Of a DNA stretch of 54,407 bases, positions 26,641 through 31,745 are shown one piece after another. Location of the stretch: positions 47,168 to 101,574 of the forward strand of contig CAYFLR010000013.1 of assembly GCA_964343805.1 (NCBI GenBank), read 5' to 3'. The DNA comes from an uncultured bacterium. GTDB taxonomy: Bacteria > Bdellovibrionota_B > Oligoflexia > CAYFLR01. The position numbers were made by a program, and so were the translations under genes. Within the stretch, counting starts at the first letter, position 1. Each line of letters opens with the position of its first letter. Under the pieces are notes generated by a model. It was not told where the DNA came from and ran no database searches. It was given only the letters and a program-made list of their open reading frames with translations.

Positions 26641-27462
26641 ATGAGCTCTCAATTTCTCATCAATGAGATTAAAGCCACTATTAAATCCCTGCTCAAAAAT
26701 AAAAAAATGAGCTATCAACAGGTGGCAAATCATTTAAACTGCTCTCTCTCCACTGTTAAAAGAATCCTGGGAAAAGAAGAGCTAGCTCTCAGTCGACTGT
26801 TAGAAATTTGTGAACTCTTAGGATTATCTATGGGTGAATTAGAAAAGTTAGCAGGAGATCGTAAAAAAAAAGAGATCCTCAATTTCACTATCTCGCAAGA
26901 GGAATTTTTTGCAGATAATCCAGAGTACTTTAATTATTATCAGCTGTTACACTCAGGAAAATCTCCAAAACAAATTGCCAAAAGTAACAAGCTCAATAAG
27001 TTAAGCAGTGATAAATACTTAAGGGAGCTAGAAAATATAGGAGTTATAACCATCAGCCCCAAAGGTAAGATTTCATTTAAATACAAATCATCTCCCGATT
27101 GGATCGAAAGAGGTCCGCTGATGCAAGCCTTCTACCGTCATATTATTAATTCTGCTCGGGATTACTTTTTAAGTAGGATCACTCACAATTTACATGTCGA
27201 TCAACTGGGTGACGAAGAACTCATGGTAAGGTTTCAGATTCTCGATGCATCTAATAACACCTTGAAAGATTTCCTAAAAAGCCTACAAAAACTCATCAAT
27301 GAACTAGATACCAAGGCTGGAATGGAAGCCAAATATCTTCCTAAAAAAGATTTGGCAGCCGGTGTCCTCTATGTTGGCTTTGATATTACCAAAGATCAAA
27401 AACAGATTAATAACATAATGGACAATTCTTTAGGAAAAATTGCTAATATTTATAAAGAATAA
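26641..27462 (+). CDS. HTH transcriptional regulator (XRE-like N-terminal HTH plus a second wHTH-like segment)
   Basis: MSYQQVANHLNCSLSTVKRILG is a classic helix-turn-helix. The second segment is SPKQIAKSNKLNKLSSDKYLRELENIGVI. It lies directly upstream of, and on the same strand as, the stator-like operon. Confidence 0.65.
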   Translation: MSSQFLINEIKATIKSLLKNKKMSYQQVANHLNCSLSTVKRILGKEELALSRLLEICELLGLSMGELEKLAGDRKKKEILNFTISQEEFFADNPEYFNYYQLLHSGKSPKQIAKSNKLNKLSSDKYLRELENIGVITISPKGKISFKYKSSPDWIERGPLMQAFYRHIINSARDYFLSRITHNLHVDQLGDEELMVRFQILDASNNTLKDFLKSLQKLINELDTKAGMEAKYLPKKDLAAGVLYVGFDITKDQKQINNIMDNSLGKIANIYKE

Positions 27463-27552
27463 CAATTTTTTTCTTAAATCTTTAAATTCAGATCCGATGG
27501 GACCTTGTGATGTTTTTTTGGGGACAAATGGGATCCCTATGTGAGGTTTTAA

Positions 27553-29631
27553 GTGGCTCTGAATTATTATAGCAGTCAAAAAGAAGATAAAGGCAGTGAA
27601 AAGTCCATAGGCTACTTTAGCGATCTGTTTGCACTGCTTTGCTTTATTTTTCTCTTTCTCTATGTGATTTCTACCTTGCAACAGAATTTATCCTCCTTGA
27701 ATCAAAATATAAAAAGTCAAAAGGTAGAGAAGAACTACGATCAGAAGATCAAAAATATTGTGCAGGAATATGAAAAGCAGATGGTAGTTTTTCAAAAAGA
27801 GAAAGAGGAATACATCAAACAGCATGCCACTAAAGAGCAGAAAAACACCTACGAAGATGTCCTTGAGAAATTAAAGGCCGTGAAGTTGAAAGAGCAGAAG
27901 AAGCTAGAAGCCTATCAAGACCTCATGGATAAAACTCAAAATAAGATTAAAAATATCTTCTCTCTCAATAAACAAATTGAAAATATAGCGGCCTCAAATT
28001 TAGTGGCCTCTGCCCAAATTAAAAAGCTAAAAGAAGAGAAAGAAAAAATAAAAAAGCAAAAGGAACAGGAAGAGTTAAGGAAAAAGCAAATTCTCGAAGA
28101 GATGCAGAAAAAGGTAGAGGAGAAAGAGAAACAAAAGCAGGTAGCTATCTTAAACGTAAAGAAACAAACCCAAGATGTTATTCAAAAGAAAGAAAAAGAA
28201 TTGAAACAAAAAGTTAAGAAAGTGCAAGAAATGGCTATCTCCATGGTGAAACAGACCAAGGAAGAGATGACTAATAAATATGAACAGAAAATAACCGAGC
28301 AGGACAAAAATTATAAAGAACAGATAAATACCATCCAAAAACAAACTAAAGAGCAGTTACAAAAGCAAAAGCAGGATTGGCAAAAAGAAATAGAAGCCAA
28401 AGATCAGCAGATGAGCATGAAGGTCCAAGAGTTTCAAGACAAAATCACGACTCAAGAACAGCAGTATAAACAGCAAATTACCACTCAAGAACAGCAGTAC
28501 AAGCAGCAAATTACTACTCAAGATCAACAATACAAACAAAAAATTGCCCAACAAGAGCAACAATATCAACAAGAGATCTCACAAAAAGTTCAGAAATATG
28601 AACAACAAATTCAAAAGCAAGGGCAACAGCATCAACAGGAGATGACATCTCAAGATCAAAACTATAAGCAGCAGATAAACAGTTTACAAAAAGCAAGCCA
28701 AGATCAACTGCAAAAACAAAACGCTTTATGGCAGAGCGAGCTACAAAGCAAAGAGCAGAACTGGCAGGCCAAAACCAATGAACTGCAACAATCTCTCAGC
28801 CAAAACAAAGACGCCTTCGCCCAATTTAAGAGTGCCGCTCAGGCAAAAGAAGATCAGTTGAAACAAGACATGAAAAATGCCCTTGTAGAAAACACCGCTG
28901 CTCTCACAGCTAATTTTGATAATCAAATGGCAGAAGCAGATAGTCAACATAAGAAAAAATACAGTGGCTTAAAAGATAAATATAAAGCAGCGGTTGAAGA
29001 TAAATGGCGCCTCATTGACAAAGTCAACATATTTGCCGAACCTCAAGCGAAATTGGTCGACCGAATTCATGGGAAGTTAACTGAAGCCTTTAAAAAAGCC
29101 GGTATTGAAGCCGATGTAAATCCCACATCTGGAGAGGTGACCATCAAGTTTAGAGACACCTTCTTTGATTTTGATAAGTCAGATTTAAAAGACGAAATGA
29201 AGGACCAGGTTGCTAAACTTTTTCCTATTTTTGCCAAGACGATATTAGGTGATCGAAGTATTGCTAGAAGGGTTAAATCCTTTGACCTCATTGGTTATGC
29301 TTCCCCTGTCTATGGCGGAGGATTTGTTTATCAAGATGCTCGCACCGAGTTCGGACGACGAGCCCTAAAATACAATATGGATTTGAGCTACCAACGAGCA
29401 CAATCGATTTTTCACTATGTATTCAACCCGGAAAACGTCAAATTTAAATACCAAAGATCCATGCTTAGAAAAACCAAAGTGATCAGTATGAGTCACCTAG
29501 GTACCAAACTCAAAAGGCTATTACCTGAGTATGACAAGAGTAAGCATTTTTGTGAAAATTATGACTGCCAAGAGTGGCAAAAAACATCGATTCGATTTAA
29601 TTTTCGACAACCCAGATTTGAGGGTAAATAA
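27553..29631 (+). CDS. MotB/TolR-like Asp-TM protein with ~430 aa of K/E/Q-rich coiled coil and a C-terminal OmpA/MotB-like peptidoglycan-binding domain
   Basis: GTG start, preceded in frame by TAA, with GAGG 6 nt upstream. Single TM GYFSD24LFALLCFIFLFLYV mimics the MotB YADFMTAMMAFF context. Long heptad-like region spans about residues 45-470. The C-terminus FDFDKSDL...DLIGYASPVY...YNMDLSYQRAQSIF matches the OmpA_C pattern (N..LS..RA). Confidence 0.75.
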   Translation: MALNYYSSQKEDKGSEKSIGYFSDLFALLCFIFLFLYVISTLQQNLSSLNQNIKSQKVEKNYDQKIKNIVQEYEKQMVVFQKEKEEYIKQHATKEQKNTYEDVLEKLKAVKLKEQKKLEAYQDLMDKTQNKIKNIFSLNKQIENIAASNLVASAQIKKLKEEKEKIKKQKEQEELRKKQILEEMQKKVEEKEKQKQVAILNVKKQTQDVIQKKEKELKQKVKKVQEMAISMVKQTKEEMTNKYEQKITEQDKNYKEQINTIQKQTKEQLQKQKQDWQKEIEAKDQQMSMKVQEFQDKITTQEQQYKQQITTQEQQYKQQITTQDQQYKQKIAQQEQQYQQEISQKVQKYEQQIQKQGQQHQQEMTSQDQNYKQQINSLQKASQDQLQKQNALWQSELQSKEQNWQAKTNELQQSLSQNKDAFAQFKSAAQAKEDQLKQDMKNALVENTAALTANFDNQMAEADSQHKKKYSGLKDKYKAAVEDKWRLIDKVNIFAEPQAKLVDRIHGKLTEAFKKAGIEADVNPTSGEVTIKFRDTFFDFDKSDLKDEMKDQVAKLFPIFAKTILGDRSIARRVKSFDLIGYASPVYGGGFVYQDARTEFGRRALKYNMDLSYQRAQSIFHYVFNPENVKFKYQRSMLRKTKVISMSHLGTKLKRLLPEYDKSKHFCENYDCQEWQKTSIRFNFRQPRFEGK
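28447..28545 (+). repeat. 3x 33-bp in-frame tandem repeat (TTQEQQYKQQI)
   Basis: The units are acgactcaagaacagcagtataaacagcaaatt / accactcaagaacagcagtacaagcagcaaatt / actactcaagatcaacaatacaaacaaaaaatt. Confidence 0.9.
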
Positions 29632-31010: not shown

Positions 31011-31031
31011 TTTCATTTGTGAGAGTGACCT

Positions 31032-31745
31032 ATGGGCTTATTTTCCAGTTTAAAAAATTTAGTGACAAAAGAGGATCTCCAACAAGAGTATGAACTCAGA
31101 GAATGCCGTATTTTGGTAGATCAAATTGAGGGGGTCAGTTTTTCACTTAAAGAAAATGAGAACGAGATTCCCATAAAAATTGATAATATTTCTATCAATG
31201 GAATAGGTCTGAGTAAGGATTCGGTGGACAATTGGGGAGAAGTTGGAAGCTCCCTTTTTGGTAAATTACATTTCGATCAAAAAGATTATGATGTGCAAAT
31301 GGAGATCGCTCGCATTACCCCTTCTTTGATTGGCTGTAAATTCACAGAATTCCCCACAGAATATGAAGAGCACTTTGAAGAATTCTTTGCCGTAGAACTG
31401 GCCGCTACTGATTTGGTTCCCATTACCATGCAGGGCTTATCCCAAGAAAGCGAAGAGGGAAAACCCTTTTATTATAAAGGAGATAATGACTGTCTGATTA
31501 AACTGCTAGAAAAAGATAAAAATGTCATCTCATTTTCTATCTCCTTTTTAGGACATAATGTAGGCTTTGAAGTTAATAAACCTTTAAAAGCCTGGTTTGA
31601 AGATAATGAAGAAGGAGAAGAAACAGGCTCGAACTTTGTTCAAATTATCAAGACAACTCGGAGCTTCTTGAATAACACCTCCTGTCTACCCAAAGAGCAA
31701 AGAGCTTTTATTTTAGAGCAACTAAATTCGGGACCTGCAACTTAA
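31032..31745 (+). CDS. PilZ-like domain protein
   Basis: IDNISINGIGLS matches the (D/N)xSxxG PilZ motif. Later PilZ barrel strands are GKLHFDQKDYDVQMEIARITPSLIGCKF. The upstream RxxxR motif is degenerate (LRECR). Confidence 0.55.
   Translation: MGLFSSLKNLVTKEDLQQEYELRECRILVDQIEGVSFSLKENENEIPIKIDNISINGIGLSKDSVDNWGEVGSSLFGKLHFDQKDYDVQMEIARITPSLIGCKFTEFPTEYEEHFEEFFAVELAATDLVPITMQGLSQESEEGKPFYYKGDNDCLIKLLEKDKNVISFSISFLGHNVGFEVNKPLKAWFEDNEEGEETGSNFVQIIKTTRSFLNNTSCLPKEQRAFILEQLNSGPAT

What the first reader, a model, noticed from the sequence alone, without database searches (positions are those of the whole stretch)
26641..31745. Non-canonical stator-like operon: coiled-coil MotB/TolR-OmpA hybrid + ExbB/MotA-like channel + STAS/Zn-ribbon + PilZ
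Four genes are separated by 2, 9 and 21 nt, each with its own SD. They sit behind an HTH regulator on the same strand, and I see no convincing promoter in between. (i) The 692-aa protein has a single N-terminal TM with Asp24 in a MotB-like context (YFSDLFALL). It has an OmpA/MotB-type PG-binding C-terminus, and about 430 aa of K/E/Q coiled coil between the two. (ii) The 291-aa protein is a 3-TM ExbB/TolQ/MotA-like protein (GGLFGTFLGIMGG; AMGTSVLGILLSVGTT). (iii) The third protein has a STAS-like domain with Ala at the phospho-Ser position, plus a CxxC..CxxC ribbon. (iv) The fourth is a PilZ-like protein with an intact NxSxxG motif but a degenerate RxxxR motif. This fits no layout I know. It is not flagellar (no fli/flg/motility genes, and MotB has no such spacer). 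It is not Tol-Pal or TonB (no TolR/ExbD, TolB or Pal; here the Asp-TM and the long TolA-like helix are in one polypeptide). It is not Zorya (there the long tail is on the A subunit, the order is zorA-zorB, and nuclease/helicase partners follow). The STAS and PilZ partners suggest partner-switching and possibly c-di-GMP control of an ion-driven envelope machine. A bacteriohemerythrin gene follows.
Basis: partly seen in the sequence, partly recalled or inferred. Interest (0 to 1): 0.8.

Follow-up and report, generated by a model that had tools for sequence, protein, structure and literature searches.

The report
Zorya-related membrane motor, long periplasmic stalk
The region encodes a previously unstudied relative of the ion-driven ZorAB/MotAB membrane motors, in which the long helical stalk sits on the cell-wall-anchored subunit instead of the channel subunit. 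It belongs to a conserved two-gene family found in many predatory and sulfate-reducing bacteria, and its job is unknown.

Summary
The 692-aa protein (B) and the 291-aa protein (A) are homologues of ZorB and ZorA, the 5:2 proton-motor core of the Zorya anti-phage system. B's invariant Asp24 aligns with ZorB Asp26. A's Thr185 and Ser225 align with the ZorA ion filter (Thr147/Ser184). B's C-terminus keeps the ZorB peptidoglycan-binding residues.

The system is not Zorya. A has no cytoplasmic tail, no effector genes are present, and the gene order is B then A. B carries a roughly 440-residue helical spacer that is predicted to be periplasmic.

The B-A pair was found in 180 species genomes. In 76 of the 78 non-duplicate loci examined (of 80 kept), B lies directly upstream of A. 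Most hosts are Bdellovibrionota and Desulfobacterales. No copy was found on viral contigs or plasmids, and I found no paper on the family.

The four-gene layout is not conserved. The STAS/Zn-ribbon gene follows A only in the closest relative. The PilZ and HTH genes recur next to no other B-A pair. Other clades have a different third gene, such as an FHA/coiled-coil/TM protein or a 4-TM protein.

My best reading is a chromosomal, non-defence, PMF-driven envelope motor with lineage-specific cytoplasmic regulators. It is a new variant of a known kind.

The parts
27553..29631 (+). B subunit (692 aa). It is a ZorB/MotB-type axle protein: a short cytoplasmic N-terminus, one TM segment with invariant Asp24 (codon 27622-27624), a long helical spacer and a C-terminal PG-binding domain.
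   Evidence: The N-terminal profile best matches E. coli ZorB (8qyd_F) at 2.6e-5, with D24 aligned to ZorB D26.
27685..29007 (+). Helical spacer of B (aa ~45-485). It has no Pro, 2 Gly and 50% Q/K/E. By MotB/ZorB topology it is predicted to be periplasmic. It contains a 33-nt x 3.2 tandem repeat at 28442-28545.
   Evidence: In 75 homologue ORFs (a few duplicate loci included) the spacer is 274-723 aa (median 375). Its periodicity is heptad in 55 of 70 homologues but 3.65 in the window copy.
29041..29628 (+). ZorB/OmpA-like peptidoglycan-binding domain of B (aa ~497-692). Y607-N608-L611-R615 match the ZorB PG-contact residues. The Cys pair C667/C672 is invariant.
   Evidence: PADLOC ZorB1 1.5e-18; type II ZorB 8vvi_A 6e-8; invariant columns. 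ZorB Y151/N152/L155/R159 and PGBD disulfides. Pfam OmpA hits 53 of 60 homologues.
29634..30509 (+). A subunit (291 aa). It is a tail-less ZorA-like channel/rotor subunit with 3 TM segments. Thr185 (30186-30188) and Ser225 (30306-30308) sit at the ZorA ion-filter positions.
   Evidence: The Foldseek top hits are ZorA 8qyk/8qyh/8qyd (probability 1.0). The A1 profile hits only ZorA in the PDB (5e-9).
30519..31010 (+). STAS-like domain (aa ~5-95; Ala50 at the phospho-Ser position) plus a C-terminal CxxC...CxxC zinc ribbon (C102, C105, C133, C136). This is a lineage-specific accessory gene.
   Evidence: Pfam STAS 0.018. TM1442 0.007 and prestin STAS 0.04; a low-confidence model whose top matches are SpoIIAA, anti-sigma antagonists and MlaB; alignment; distribution.
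31032..31745 (+). PilZ-domain protein (237 aa). The PilZ domain spans aa 36-118, with R23xxR26 and N52xS54xxG57. The C-terminal half (aa ~120-237) is unassigned. This is a lineage-specific accessory gene.
   Evidence: Pfam PilZ 1e-6, 29.4 bits against a gathering score of 22.5; no homologue in any related locus; no PDB match.
26641..27462 (+). Cro/C1-type HTH protein (273 aa) 90 nt upstream of B. It is probably a neighbouring regulator and is not a conserved part of the module.
   Evidence: HTH_26 4e-9; the gene upstream of B in L004 is unrelated; the only HTH homologue (L035) lies ~5 kb upstream of B on the opposite strand.
31841..32251 (+). Bacteriohemerythrin. It likely has its own promoter-like site (31774-31802) and a true start at 31853. 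It is not a conserved part of the module.
   Evidence: NF033749 1.9e-44.; no homologue in any related locus.

Best explanation
**What it is.** The core is a two-gene, ion-driven (probably proton-driven) rotary motor of the 5:2 class, descended from the same lineage as ZorAB. Five copies of A (a tail-less ZorA-like protein with 3 TM segments) would form a ring around a dimer of B.

**How it probably works.** Ion flow through the Thr185/Ser225 filter of A onto Asp24 of B would turn A relative to B. B is fixed to peptidoglycan by a ZorB/OmpA-type domain. That domain is joined to the membrane helix by a very long helical stalk: about 440 residues here and 274-723 in relatives. If this is one continuous helix, it is tens of nm long and lies in the periplasm.

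**Biological role.** The pair is a chromosomal, largely vertically inherited envelope machine, not an anti-phage island.

**Accessory genes.** Accessory genes differ by clade. In this lineage the motor genes are followed by a cytoplasmic STAS/Zn-ribbon protein and a PilZ-like protein, apparently in one transcript. I infer that these dock on the cytoplasmic face of the A ring to gate, brake or read out the motor. PilZ proteins do this on flagellar stators (YcgR, FlgX), and STAS proteins do it on transporters (MlaB, SulP).

**Shown versus inferred.**
- Shown: homology, conserved catalytic and PG-binding residues, B-A synteny, and lack of conservation of the other genes.
- Inferred: 5:2 stoichiometry, proton use, periplasmic location of the stalk, co-transcription, the regulatory role of STAS and PilZ, and the non-defence function.
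For: **A is ZorA-like.**
- NCBIfam ZorA_3 gives 3.6e-8 and PADLOC ZorA1 gives 1.5e-7.
- The family profile hits only ZorA in the PDB, at 5e-9.
- The AF2 model (pLDDT 79) best matches ZorA, then ExbB and TolQ. All 50 listed Foldseek matches are A subunits of 5:2 motors.
- T185 and S225 align with ZorA T147 and S184, the ion filter described in PMC11946911.

**B is ZorB-like.**
- Invariant D24 aligns with ZorB D26.
- The C-terminal profile matches type II ZorB at 6e-8, and PADLOC ZorB1 gives 1.5e-18.
- The YNxxLxxxR PG-contact motif and an invariant Cys pair are conserved.
- Pfam OmpA hits 53 of 60 homologues.

**The family is real and conserved.**
- 180 genome loci were found.
- B lies immediately upstream of A in 76 of 78 loci.
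- The A profile finds 483 clusters (at 50% identity) at E<1e-3.

**Evidence for a non-defence, non-mobile role.**
- Neighbouring genes are metabolic or lipoprotein genes.
- The window contains no tRNA, and the module has no flanking repeats.
- There are no hits on viral contigs or plasmids.
- The window's accessory genes and the FHA and 4-TM third genes tested from other clades have no meaningful PADLOC hit; one FHA partner weakly matches JetC over its coiled coil.
- The A tree broadly follows taxonomy and the type of third gene.

**Precedent for PilZ acting on stators.** PMC11725899 and PMC10140304.
Against: - Nothing here is experimental. Stoichiometry and ion type are inferred by homology.
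- The window's own A and B miss the Pfam MotA_ExbB and OmpA thresholds.
- The STAS/Zn and PilZ genes are not conserved partners, so their link to the motor rests only on the 9- and 21-nt spacing.
- The PilZ RxxxR motif is degenerate, and the STAS lacks the phospho-Ser.
- A roughly 65-nm helix does not fit upright in a normal periplasm, so its geometry and purpose are unexplained.
- Because the nearest relatives are Zorya proteins, a defence role with unrecognised effectors cannot be excluded.
Confidence: 0.6

Rival explanations
1. It is an anti-phage defence system: a new Zorya type. The ZorAB-like sensor would detect envelope damage and signal to effectors that are not yet recognised (STAS/Zn and PilZ here, the FHA/coiled-coil protein elsewhere).
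For: The best sequence and structure matches of both subunits are ZorA and ZorB. Known Zorya types also share ZorAB and differ in their downstream genes (PMC11890865).
Against: - The A subunit has no long tail, although long tails are reported in all Zorya subtypes and are needed for function.
- No nuclease, helicase or other PADLOC-recognised effector is present.
- The gene order is reversed.
- The flanking genes are housekeeping genes (cysE/cysK, IDH, 6PGD, metabolic genes).
- The family is absent from IMG/VR viral contigs and PLSDB plasmids.
- Its distribution is broad and coherent with clades across Bdellovibrionota.
Confidence: 0.12
2. B-A is a motor whose output is periplasmic. The A ring is held still and the B dimer with its long coiled coil is the moving part, as with GldM or TonB/TolA. 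It would transmit force along or across the periplasm for gliding, outer-membrane tethering, constriction or cell shape.
For: - The very long helical spacer is the family's most constant special feature (274-723 aa), with heptad periodicity in 55 of 70 homologues.
- Third genes in other clades are membrane-anchored (FHA/coiled-coil/TM or 4-TM proteins) and could hold the A ring.
- GldLM, ExbBD-TonB and TolQRA are precedents, from established knowledge and the structures listed.
Against: - B keeps a canonical PG-binding motif. In MotB and ZorB this marks the fixed partner, not the moving one.
- No outer-membrane or periplasmic partner is conserved next to the pair across clades.
- No motility or Tol-Pal genes are adjacent.
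Confidence: 0.2
3. Only B-A form a functional unit. The HTH, STAS/Zn, PilZ and hemerythrin genes are unrelated neighbours that happen to share the strand.
For: - None of the four recurs with B-A outside the closest relative.
- STAS/Zn homologues occur without B-A in 7 of 7 metagenome loci.
- The hemerythrin gene has its own promoter-like site.
Against: - Gaps of 9 and 21 nt with SD sites, and no terminator-like site between A and PilZ, argue for co-transcription.
- The STAS/Zn gene is retained directly after A in the relative whose A is 61% identical (L004/L005), and a homologue lies within 7 kb in L045 and L067.
- PilZ proteins acting on stators have strong precedent.
Confidence: 0.25

Closest known systems
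ZorAB, the motor core of Zorya anti-phage systems (E. coli type I: PDB 8QYD; S. kujiense type II: 8VVI)
   Same: - It is the best sequence and fold match for both subunits.
- The B Asp (D24 = ZorB D26), the A Thr/Ser ion filter (T185/S225 = ZorA T147/S184) and the PG-binding YNxxLxxxR motif are all conserved.
- The C-terminal domain contains Cys residues, consistent with a periplasmic domain.
- A has 3 TM segments.
   Different: - A stops about 50 residues after TM3, whereas ZorA has a ~500-residue, ~70-nm cytoplasmic tail.
- The long helix is instead on B, between the TM segment and the PG-binding domain.
- The gene order is B-A, not A-B.
- There is no ZorC/D/E/F/G.
- The genomic context is housekeeping, not a defence island.
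Flagellar stator MotAB/PomAB with PilZ regulators (YcgR, FlgX, MotI, MotL)
   Same: - B has an Asp-bearing TM segment and an OmpA-like PG anchor.
- A PilZ-domain protein is encoded alongside the motor, which suggests control at the cytoplasmic face of the A ring.
   Different: - A has 3 TM segments rather than 4 and misses the Pfam MotA_ExbB threshold.
- No flagellar genes are adjacent.
- B has a ~440-aa spacer.
- The PilZ has RxxR instead of RxxxR.
ExbBD-TonB and TolQR-TolA force transducers
   Same: - The A fold (3 TM segments plus a cytoplasmic domain) is the second-best structural match after ZorA.
- A long helical element spans periplasmic space.
   Different: - In Ton and Tol the long helix is a separate protein (TonB/TolA), and ExbD/TolR lack an OmpA-type domain.
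- No TolB, Pal or TonB-dependent receptor genes were found among the flanking genes checked.
- No sequence-level PDB hit to ExbB or TolQ at E<=1.
GldLM (the motor for type 9 secretion and gliding)
   Same: The B-type subunit carries a long periplasm-spanning extension.
   Different: GldM uses globular domains and has no PG-binding domain. No sequence similarity to it was detected, and the taxa differ.

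Membership tests
5:2 ion-driven motor superfamily (MotAB/ExbBD/TolQR/ZorAB/GldLM) | A subunit with the ExbB/TolQ/ZorA fold and polar Thr/Ser residues on TM2 and TM3 facing the B Asp | tested here: met
   All 50 listed Foldseek matches are A subunits of 5:2 motors. T185 and S225 align with ZorA T147 and S184. T185 and S225 are invariant in 14 homologues.
5:2 ion-driven motor superfamily (MotAB/ExbBD/TolQR/ZorAB/GldLM) | B subunit with a single N-terminal TM segment carrying an invariant Asp | tested here: met
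   D24 is invariant in 53 sequences and aligns with ZorB D26 and with the MotB Asp.
5:2 ion-driven motor superfamily (MotAB/ExbBD/TolQR/ZorAB/GldLM) | A5B2 stoichiometry and ion-driven rotation | not testable with these tools
   No multimer prediction or experiment was available.
Zorya anti-phage system | ZorA and ZorB homologues encoded side by side | tested here: met
   All scores are far below the NCBIfam ZorA cut-offs (32.7 bits against 250).
Zorya anti-phage system | Long cytoplasmic coiled-coil tail on ZorA (reported in all subtypes) | tested here: not met
   A is 291 aa. Its last helix ends at aa 277 and the remaining residues are disordered. Homologues are 268-448 aa.
Zorya anti-phage system | Effector genes (ZorC/ZorD, ZorE, ZorF/G) downstream, in the order zorA-zorB-effectors | tested here: not met
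   PADLOC gives no hit for the STAS/Zn, PilZ and hemerythrin proteins. Of the FHA and 4-TM third genes from other clades, only one FHA partner gives a weak JetC3 match over its coiled coil (9.8e-6, 22 bits). The gene order is B-A.
Zorya anti-phage system | Confers phage resistance | not testable with these tools
   This needs an experiment.
Flagellar stator MotAB | MotA with 4 TM segments that matches PF01618 above threshold; MotB plug; linkage to flagellar genes | tested here: not met
   A has 3 TM segments. PF01618 gives E=0.35 for the window copy, and 7 of 14 homologues match only below threshold. MotB_plug reaches only 0.0043 in L068. No flagellar genes were found among the neighbours scanned.
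Tol-Pal / TonB systems | ExbD/TolR-type B subunit, a separate TolA/TonB protein, and TolB/Pal or TonB-dependent receptor genes | tested here: not met
   The B C-terminus is OmpA/ZorB-like. No such neighbours were seen. The A profile has no ExbB or TolQ hit at E<=1.
OmpA-like peptidoglycan-binding domain (PF00691) | Profile match and the conserved N..L..RA PG-contact motif | tested here: met
   The window copy has no Pfam hit, but 53 of 60 homologues do (best 9.8e-7). N608, L611, S612, R615 and A616 are invariant. PG binding itself was not tested.
STAS / anti-sigma-factor antagonist (SpoIIAA, RsbV) | STAS fold | tested here: inconclusive
   Three weak lines agree. Pfam STAS gives 0.018, below threshold. 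The profile matches TM1442 at 0.007 and prestin STAS at 0.04. The model has only pLDDT 60, but its top Foldseek matches are SpoIIAA, RsbV and MlaB.
STAS / anti-sigma-factor antagonist (SpoIIAA, RsbV) | Phosphorylatable Ser in the DS(A/L)G loop, with a partner kinase or PP2C phosphatase | tested here: not met
   The window copy has Ala50 (IDALG), whereas three homologues have Ser. A motif scan of the window found no kinase, PP2C, GGDEF or HD-GYP motif, and only one loose EAL-like match in an ORF ~23 kb upstream. No such domain appeared among the 20 flanking proteins scanned. Coverage of the window was only partial.
PilZ c-di-GMP receptor domain (PF07238) | Profile match above the gathering score | tested here: met
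   29.4 bits against 22.5, E=1e-6, aa 36-118.
PilZ c-di-GMP receptor domain (PF07238) | RxxxR and (D/N)xSxxG c-di-GMP-binding motifs | tested here: inconclusive
   N52-x-S54-x-x-G57 is present. R23-x-x-R26 is one residue short of RxxxR (sequence). Binding cannot be tested here.

The most novel reading that the evidence does not exclude
This family is an 'inside-out Zorya'. It would be a PMF-driven 5:2 motor whose tens-of-nm coiled-coil tail projects into the periplasm from the B dimer instead of into the cytoplasm from the A ring. That would make it a new class of energised periplasmic structural or force-transmitting element, such as a PMF-powered periplasmic tether, ruler or cytoskeleton-like rod acting along the cell wall. 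Clade-specific cytoplasmic modules (FHA/coiled-coil/TM, 4-TM + MORN, or STAS/Zn + PilZ) would couple it to phospho- or second-messenger signalling.
Probability: 0.2. Interest if true: 0.85.

Novelty: new variant of a known kind. Interest (0 to 1): 0.62.

Why it matters
Five functional classes of 5:2 ion-driven motors are known: flagellar stators, Ton, Tol, gliding/T9SS and Zorya. This is a well-conserved sixth architecture with no assigned function.

- It has at least 180 species-level genomes and 483 sequence clusters at 50% identity.
- NCBI labels the A subunit 'hypothetical protein'.
- It shows that the ZorAB lineage is not confined to phage defence.
- It moves the long helical element from the rotor to the wall-anchored subunit.
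- It samples three different kinds of accessory module.

The family therefore offers a natural experiment on two questions: what the long tails of these motors are for, and how such motors are gated. A culturable host exists (Peredibacter sp. HCB2-198), so genetic tests are feasible.

Tried and rejected
- **Word-index protein searches.** The search with the B C-terminal domain found nothing. The search with STAS/Zn found only the window's own protein. I built the homologue sets from fetched loci instead.
- **Structure models.** Because of that, only A could be modelled with an alignment. STAS/Zn was folded from a single sequence (pLDDT 60). B and PilZ were not modelled.
- **PDB search with full-length B.** It gave only apolipoprotein-like low-complexity hits.
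- **Literature.** Searches for 'ZorA-like', 'ZorB-like', 'ZorAB-like', 'Zorya-like', ZorA+ZorB+Bdellovibrio and Zorya+FHA+coiled-coil found nothing relevant. The MotAB evolution paper excludes ZorAB-type homologues.
- **RNA elements.** Rfam found none in the window.
- **Promoter and terminator scan.** It was no better than shuffled sequence, so operon boundaries remain inferred.
- **Third genes from other clades.** No homologue of the FHA/coiled-coil or 4-TM proteins is in the window. The C-terminal domain of the FHA partner has no PDB relative.
- **Spacer length versus FHA-partner length.** The correlation is weak (rho 0.35, p 0.03), so I did not use it.
- **Mobile-island idea.** Rejected: the window has no tRNA, the module has no flanking repeats, and there are no viral or plasmid hits.
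- **Single-alpha-helix (ER/K) reading of the spacer.** Rejected as the general explanation: about 30% of residues are hydrophobic, and the periodicity is significant at 3.5-3.65.

Full report
**1. Observation**

- HTH, 26641-27462, 273 aa
- B, 27553-29631, 692 aa, GTG start
- A, 29634-30509, 291 aa
- STAS/Zn, 30519-31010, 163 aa
- PilZ, 31032-31745, 237 aa
- hemerythrin, 31841-32251

The B-A, A-STAS and STAS-PilZ gaps are 2, 9 and 21 nt. Each gene has a GAGG-like site 6-10 nt upstream.

The HTH-B gap is 90 nt. Promoter-like matches in the region are no more frequent than in shuffled sequence, and none falls in that gap. The hemerythrin gene has a promoter-like site (31774-31802) and probably starts at 31853.

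**2. The A subunit**

A has three hydrophobic segments, at aa 17-35, 160-178 and 220-238.

- Pfam MotA_ExbB gives only E=0.35 for the window copy. Only 7 of 14 homologues match it, all below threshold.
- ZorA models do hit: NCBIfam ZorA_3 at 3.6e-8 and PADLOC ZorA1 at 1.5e-7.
- A profile of 14 homologues hits only ZorA chains in the PDB: 8QYH at 5e-9, Shewanella type I at 3e-5 and S. kujiense type II at 0.6. It has no ExbB, TolQ or MotA hit at E<=1.
- An AlphaFold2 model built on that alignment (pLDDT 79) best matches E. coli ZorA (probability 1.0, TM about 0.5), then ExbB and TolQ. All 50 listed matches are A subunits of 5:2 motors.
- In the pairwise alignment, Thr185 and Ser225 fall on ZorA Thr147 and Ser184. 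Hu et al. describe these as the ion-selectivity filter contacting ZorB Asp26, and a double mutant abolishes defence (PMC11946911).
- A ends about 50 residues after TM3. Its last helix stops at residue 277 and the rest is disordered. It therefore has no ZorA-like tail.

**3. The B subunit**

The N-terminus (consensus WTSYSDLFxxLSxVFLLLYV) is strongly conserved, and Asp24 is invariant in 53 sequences. The profile's best PDB hit is E. coli ZorB at 2.6e-5, with D24 on D26. MotB chains follow.

The C-terminal ~200 residues match PADLOC ZorB1 at 1.5e-18 (up to 2.6e-29 in homologues).

- As a 60-sequence profile they match S. kujiense type II ZorB (8VVI_A) at 6e-8.
- Pfam OmpA misses the window copy but hits 53 of 60 homologues.
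- Y607-N608-x-x-L611-x-x-x-R615 reproduces the spacing of ZorB Y151/N152/L155/R159, whose mutation abolishes PG binding. N608, L611 and R615 are invariant.
- An invariant Cys pair (C667, C672) fits an oxidising compartment. The ZorB PGBD has disulfides.

Between the two ends, residues ~45-485 have no Pro and two Gly. They are 50% Q/K/E and about 30% hydrophobic.

- They include a 33-nt tandem repeat of 3.2 copies, encoding 11-residue repeats.
- In 75 homologue ORFs (a few duplicate loci included) this spacer is always present, at 274-723 aa with a median of 375.
- Its hydrophobic periodicity is 3.5-3.55 (heptads, a coiled coil) in 55 of 70 homologues. The window copy peaks at 3.65, a hendecad pattern.
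- By MotB/ZorB topology (N-terminus inside, Asp near the cytoplasmic end of the TM), the spacer and the OmpA-like domain are periplasmic. This is an inference.
- As one continuous helix, 440 residues would be about 65 nm. The E. coli inner membrane to PG distance is about 9 nm. The spacer's geometry is therefore unexplained.

**4. The accessory genes**

*STAS/Zn.*
- Pfam STAS gives 0.018, below threshold.
- A four-sequence profile hits the anti-sigma antagonist TM1442 at 0.007 and prestin STAS at 0.04.
- The single-sequence model is poor (pLDDT 60), yet its best Foldseek matches are SpoIIAA, other antagonists, MlaB and RsbV.
- I therefore read the domain as STAS-like, on three weak but concordant lines.
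- At the phospho-Ser position the window protein has Ala50 (IDALG). Three homologues have Ser.
- The ribbon is C102xxC105...C133xxC136. It is degenerate in one homologue.

*PilZ.*
- Pfam gives 1e-6, above the gathering score, over aa 36-118.
- N52xS54xxG57 is intact, and R23xxR26 replaces RxxxR.
- The C-terminal half has no match.

*Others.* The HTH is a Cro/C1-type domain. The hemerythrin assignment is solid, at 1.9e-44.

**5. Comparative genomics**

- A word-index search found 14 A homologues. Some carry a precomputed Pfam label, PF28082 'ZorA-like_t1'.
- A scan of one genome per GTDB species found 180 loci, of which 80 were kept. Most are Bdellovibrionota MAGs (Bdellovibrionales, Bacteriovoracales, Oligoflexia, Silvanigrellaceae). 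There is also a Desulfobacterales group and a few gammaproteobacterial MAGs. The set includes the complete genome of Peredibacter sp. HCB2-198.
- An exhaustive profile search of 1.84 billion cluster representatives gave 483 hits at E<1e-3 and 130 at E<1e-30.
- In 76 of the 78 non-duplicate loci in which A was found, a B-like ORF of 525-973 aa lies immediately upstream of A. B-A is therefore a conserved pair.

- A STAS/Zn homologue directly follows A only in the closest relative (L004/L005; A 61% identical).
- In L045 and L067 a STAS/Zn homologue lies ~7 kb away, beyond genes on the opposite strand.
- Seven further STAS/Zn loci from metagenomes have no A or B within 7 kb.
- The PilZ and hemerythrin proteins have no homologue in any fetched locus.
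- The only HTH homologue lies ~5 kb upstream of B on the opposite strand in L035.
- The gene upstream of B in L004 is unrelated to the HTH.

Other clades have a different third gene:
- In at least 42 loci it is an FHA domain, a ~700-aa coiled coil, a TM segment and a ~190-aa C-terminal domain.
- In Desulfobacterales it is a 4-TM protein, sometimes with a DnaJ-like N-terminus. In some of these loci a secreted MORN-repeat protein follows it.
- A neighbour-joining tree of A puts the window with L004 as sister to the Desulfobacterales clade. The type of third gene follows the tree.

**6. Defence or housekeeping?**

- Flanking genes in the window are lipoproteins, a SOUL haem-binding protein, glutamate-synthase-like and other metabolic enzymes, and a glycosyltransferase.
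- In other loci the flanks include cysE/cysK, isocitrate dehydrogenase and 6PGD.
- The window contains no tRNA, and the module has no flanking repeats.
- The family was not found in 2.9 million viral contigs or 72,556 plasmids.
- PADLOC recognises none of the window's accessory genes, nor the FHA and 4-TM third genes tested from other clades, apart from one weak coiled-coil match to JetC.
- NCBI names the Peredibacter A protein 'hypothetical protein'.
- I found no paper on the family.

**7. Interpretation**

What I regard as established: homology of A and B to ZorA and ZorB, conservation of the ion-path and PG-binding residues, the B-A synteny, and the lineage-specific nature of the other genes.

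What I infer:
- an A5B2, probably proton-driven, rotary unit;
- B anchored to PG as the fixed partner, as in MotB and ZorB;
- the spacer located in the periplasm;
- co-transcription of STAS/Zn and PilZ with the motor genes;
- a gating, braking or read-out role for these two proteins at the cytoplasmic face of A.

This last inference rests on analogy. PilZ proteins act on flagellar stator units (YcgR, FlgX; PMC10140304, PMC11725899). STAS proteins regulate transporters (MlaB and SulP appear among the structural matches).

Classical phospho-dependent partner switching is unlikely for this copy, because it has Ala50. c-di-GMP binding by the PilZ protein is uncertain.

**8. Rivals**

- *A new Zorya type.* I rate this about 0.12. 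Against it: no tail, no effectors, housekeeping context, and clade-coherent distribution.
- *A periplasmic-output motor in which the B coiled coil is the working part.* I rate this about 0.2. The conserved PG-binding motif argues against it, but the evidence does not exclude it. It overlaps with the most novel reading.
- *The accessory genes are unrelated neighbours.* I rate this about 0.25.

These three address different aspects of the model (defence versus housekeeping, which part moves, whether the accessory genes belong), so they are not mutually exclusive with one another or with every part of the best explanation, and the figures are not meant to sum to 1.

**9. Verdict**

The object is a new variant of a known kind: a ZorAB-lineage 5:2 motor with the long helix moved onto the wall-anchored subunit. 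It forms a sizeable, unstudied family. The specific four-gene layout is a local elaboration of that family.

Noticed in passing
L068:9044-12412 (Peredibacter sp. HCB2-198, WP_408098657.1) and the equivalent genes in at least 42 loci, e.g. L001:9069-12248: In most Bdellovibrionota B-A loci, the gene after A encodes an FHA domain, a ~700-aa coiled coil, one TM segment and a conserved ~190-aa C-terminal domain that has no PDB or Pfam relative. This looks like a membrane-anchored cytoplasmic 'tail' supplied in trans.
   Followed up: partly
L008:8820-9578, L013:5811-6920, L011:6799-7470, L021:9619-10377: In Desulfobacterales loci the third gene is a 4-TM protein, some copies with a DnaJ-like N-terminus. 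In some loci a secreted MORN-repeat protein follows it. cysE and cysK lie upstream in two of these loci (L008, L009).
   Followed up: partly
window 27685-29007 (tandem repeat at 28442-28545): The window's B spacer has an 11-residue (3.65) hydrophobic periodicity, and its only weak PDB hits are to apolipoproteins. By contrast, 55 of 70 homologues show heptad periodicity (3.5-3.55). The spacer may have drifted towards a different helical packing, or towards a surface-binding amphipathic helix.
   Followed up: partly
window 31774-31853: The hemerythrin ORF probably starts at Met5 (31853), which has a GGAGG just upstream. A TTGACC-17-TAAAAT promoter-like site lies at 31774-31802, so the gene may be transcribed on its own.
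   Followed up: partly
window 20927-23191: This is a 754-aa predicted lipoprotein (LLNSC lipobox) with no Pfam hit. It has a Q/E/V/D-rich low-complexity C-terminal tail.
   Followed up: no
window 19274-20809 (- strand): A rubredoxin domain is fused to a glutamate-synthase/FMN-dehydrogenase-like domain. A 511-aa Glu_synthase-domain protein also lies a few genes downstream of the B-A pair in L006.
   Followed up: no
window 25319-25990: This is a SOUL haem-binding protein with an internal duplicated 'IAMTAPVEQ' segment. It lies a few kb from the hemerythrin gene.
   Followed up: no
window 51105-54323 (- strand): An NRPS-like module (condensation, adenylation, carrier and alpha/beta-hydrolase domains) sits at the end of the window.
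   Followed up: no
L010 + L069 (same MAG); L082 + L087 (same MAG): Two MAGs each carry two separate B-A loci, which suggests paralogous copies in some genomes.
   Followed up: no
Alignment A1, C-termini of the A homologues: Many A homologues end in an acidic low-complexity tail of 30-150 aa that finishes with a conserved K-x-A-S/A motif. The window copy lacks the acidic tail.
   Followed up: no
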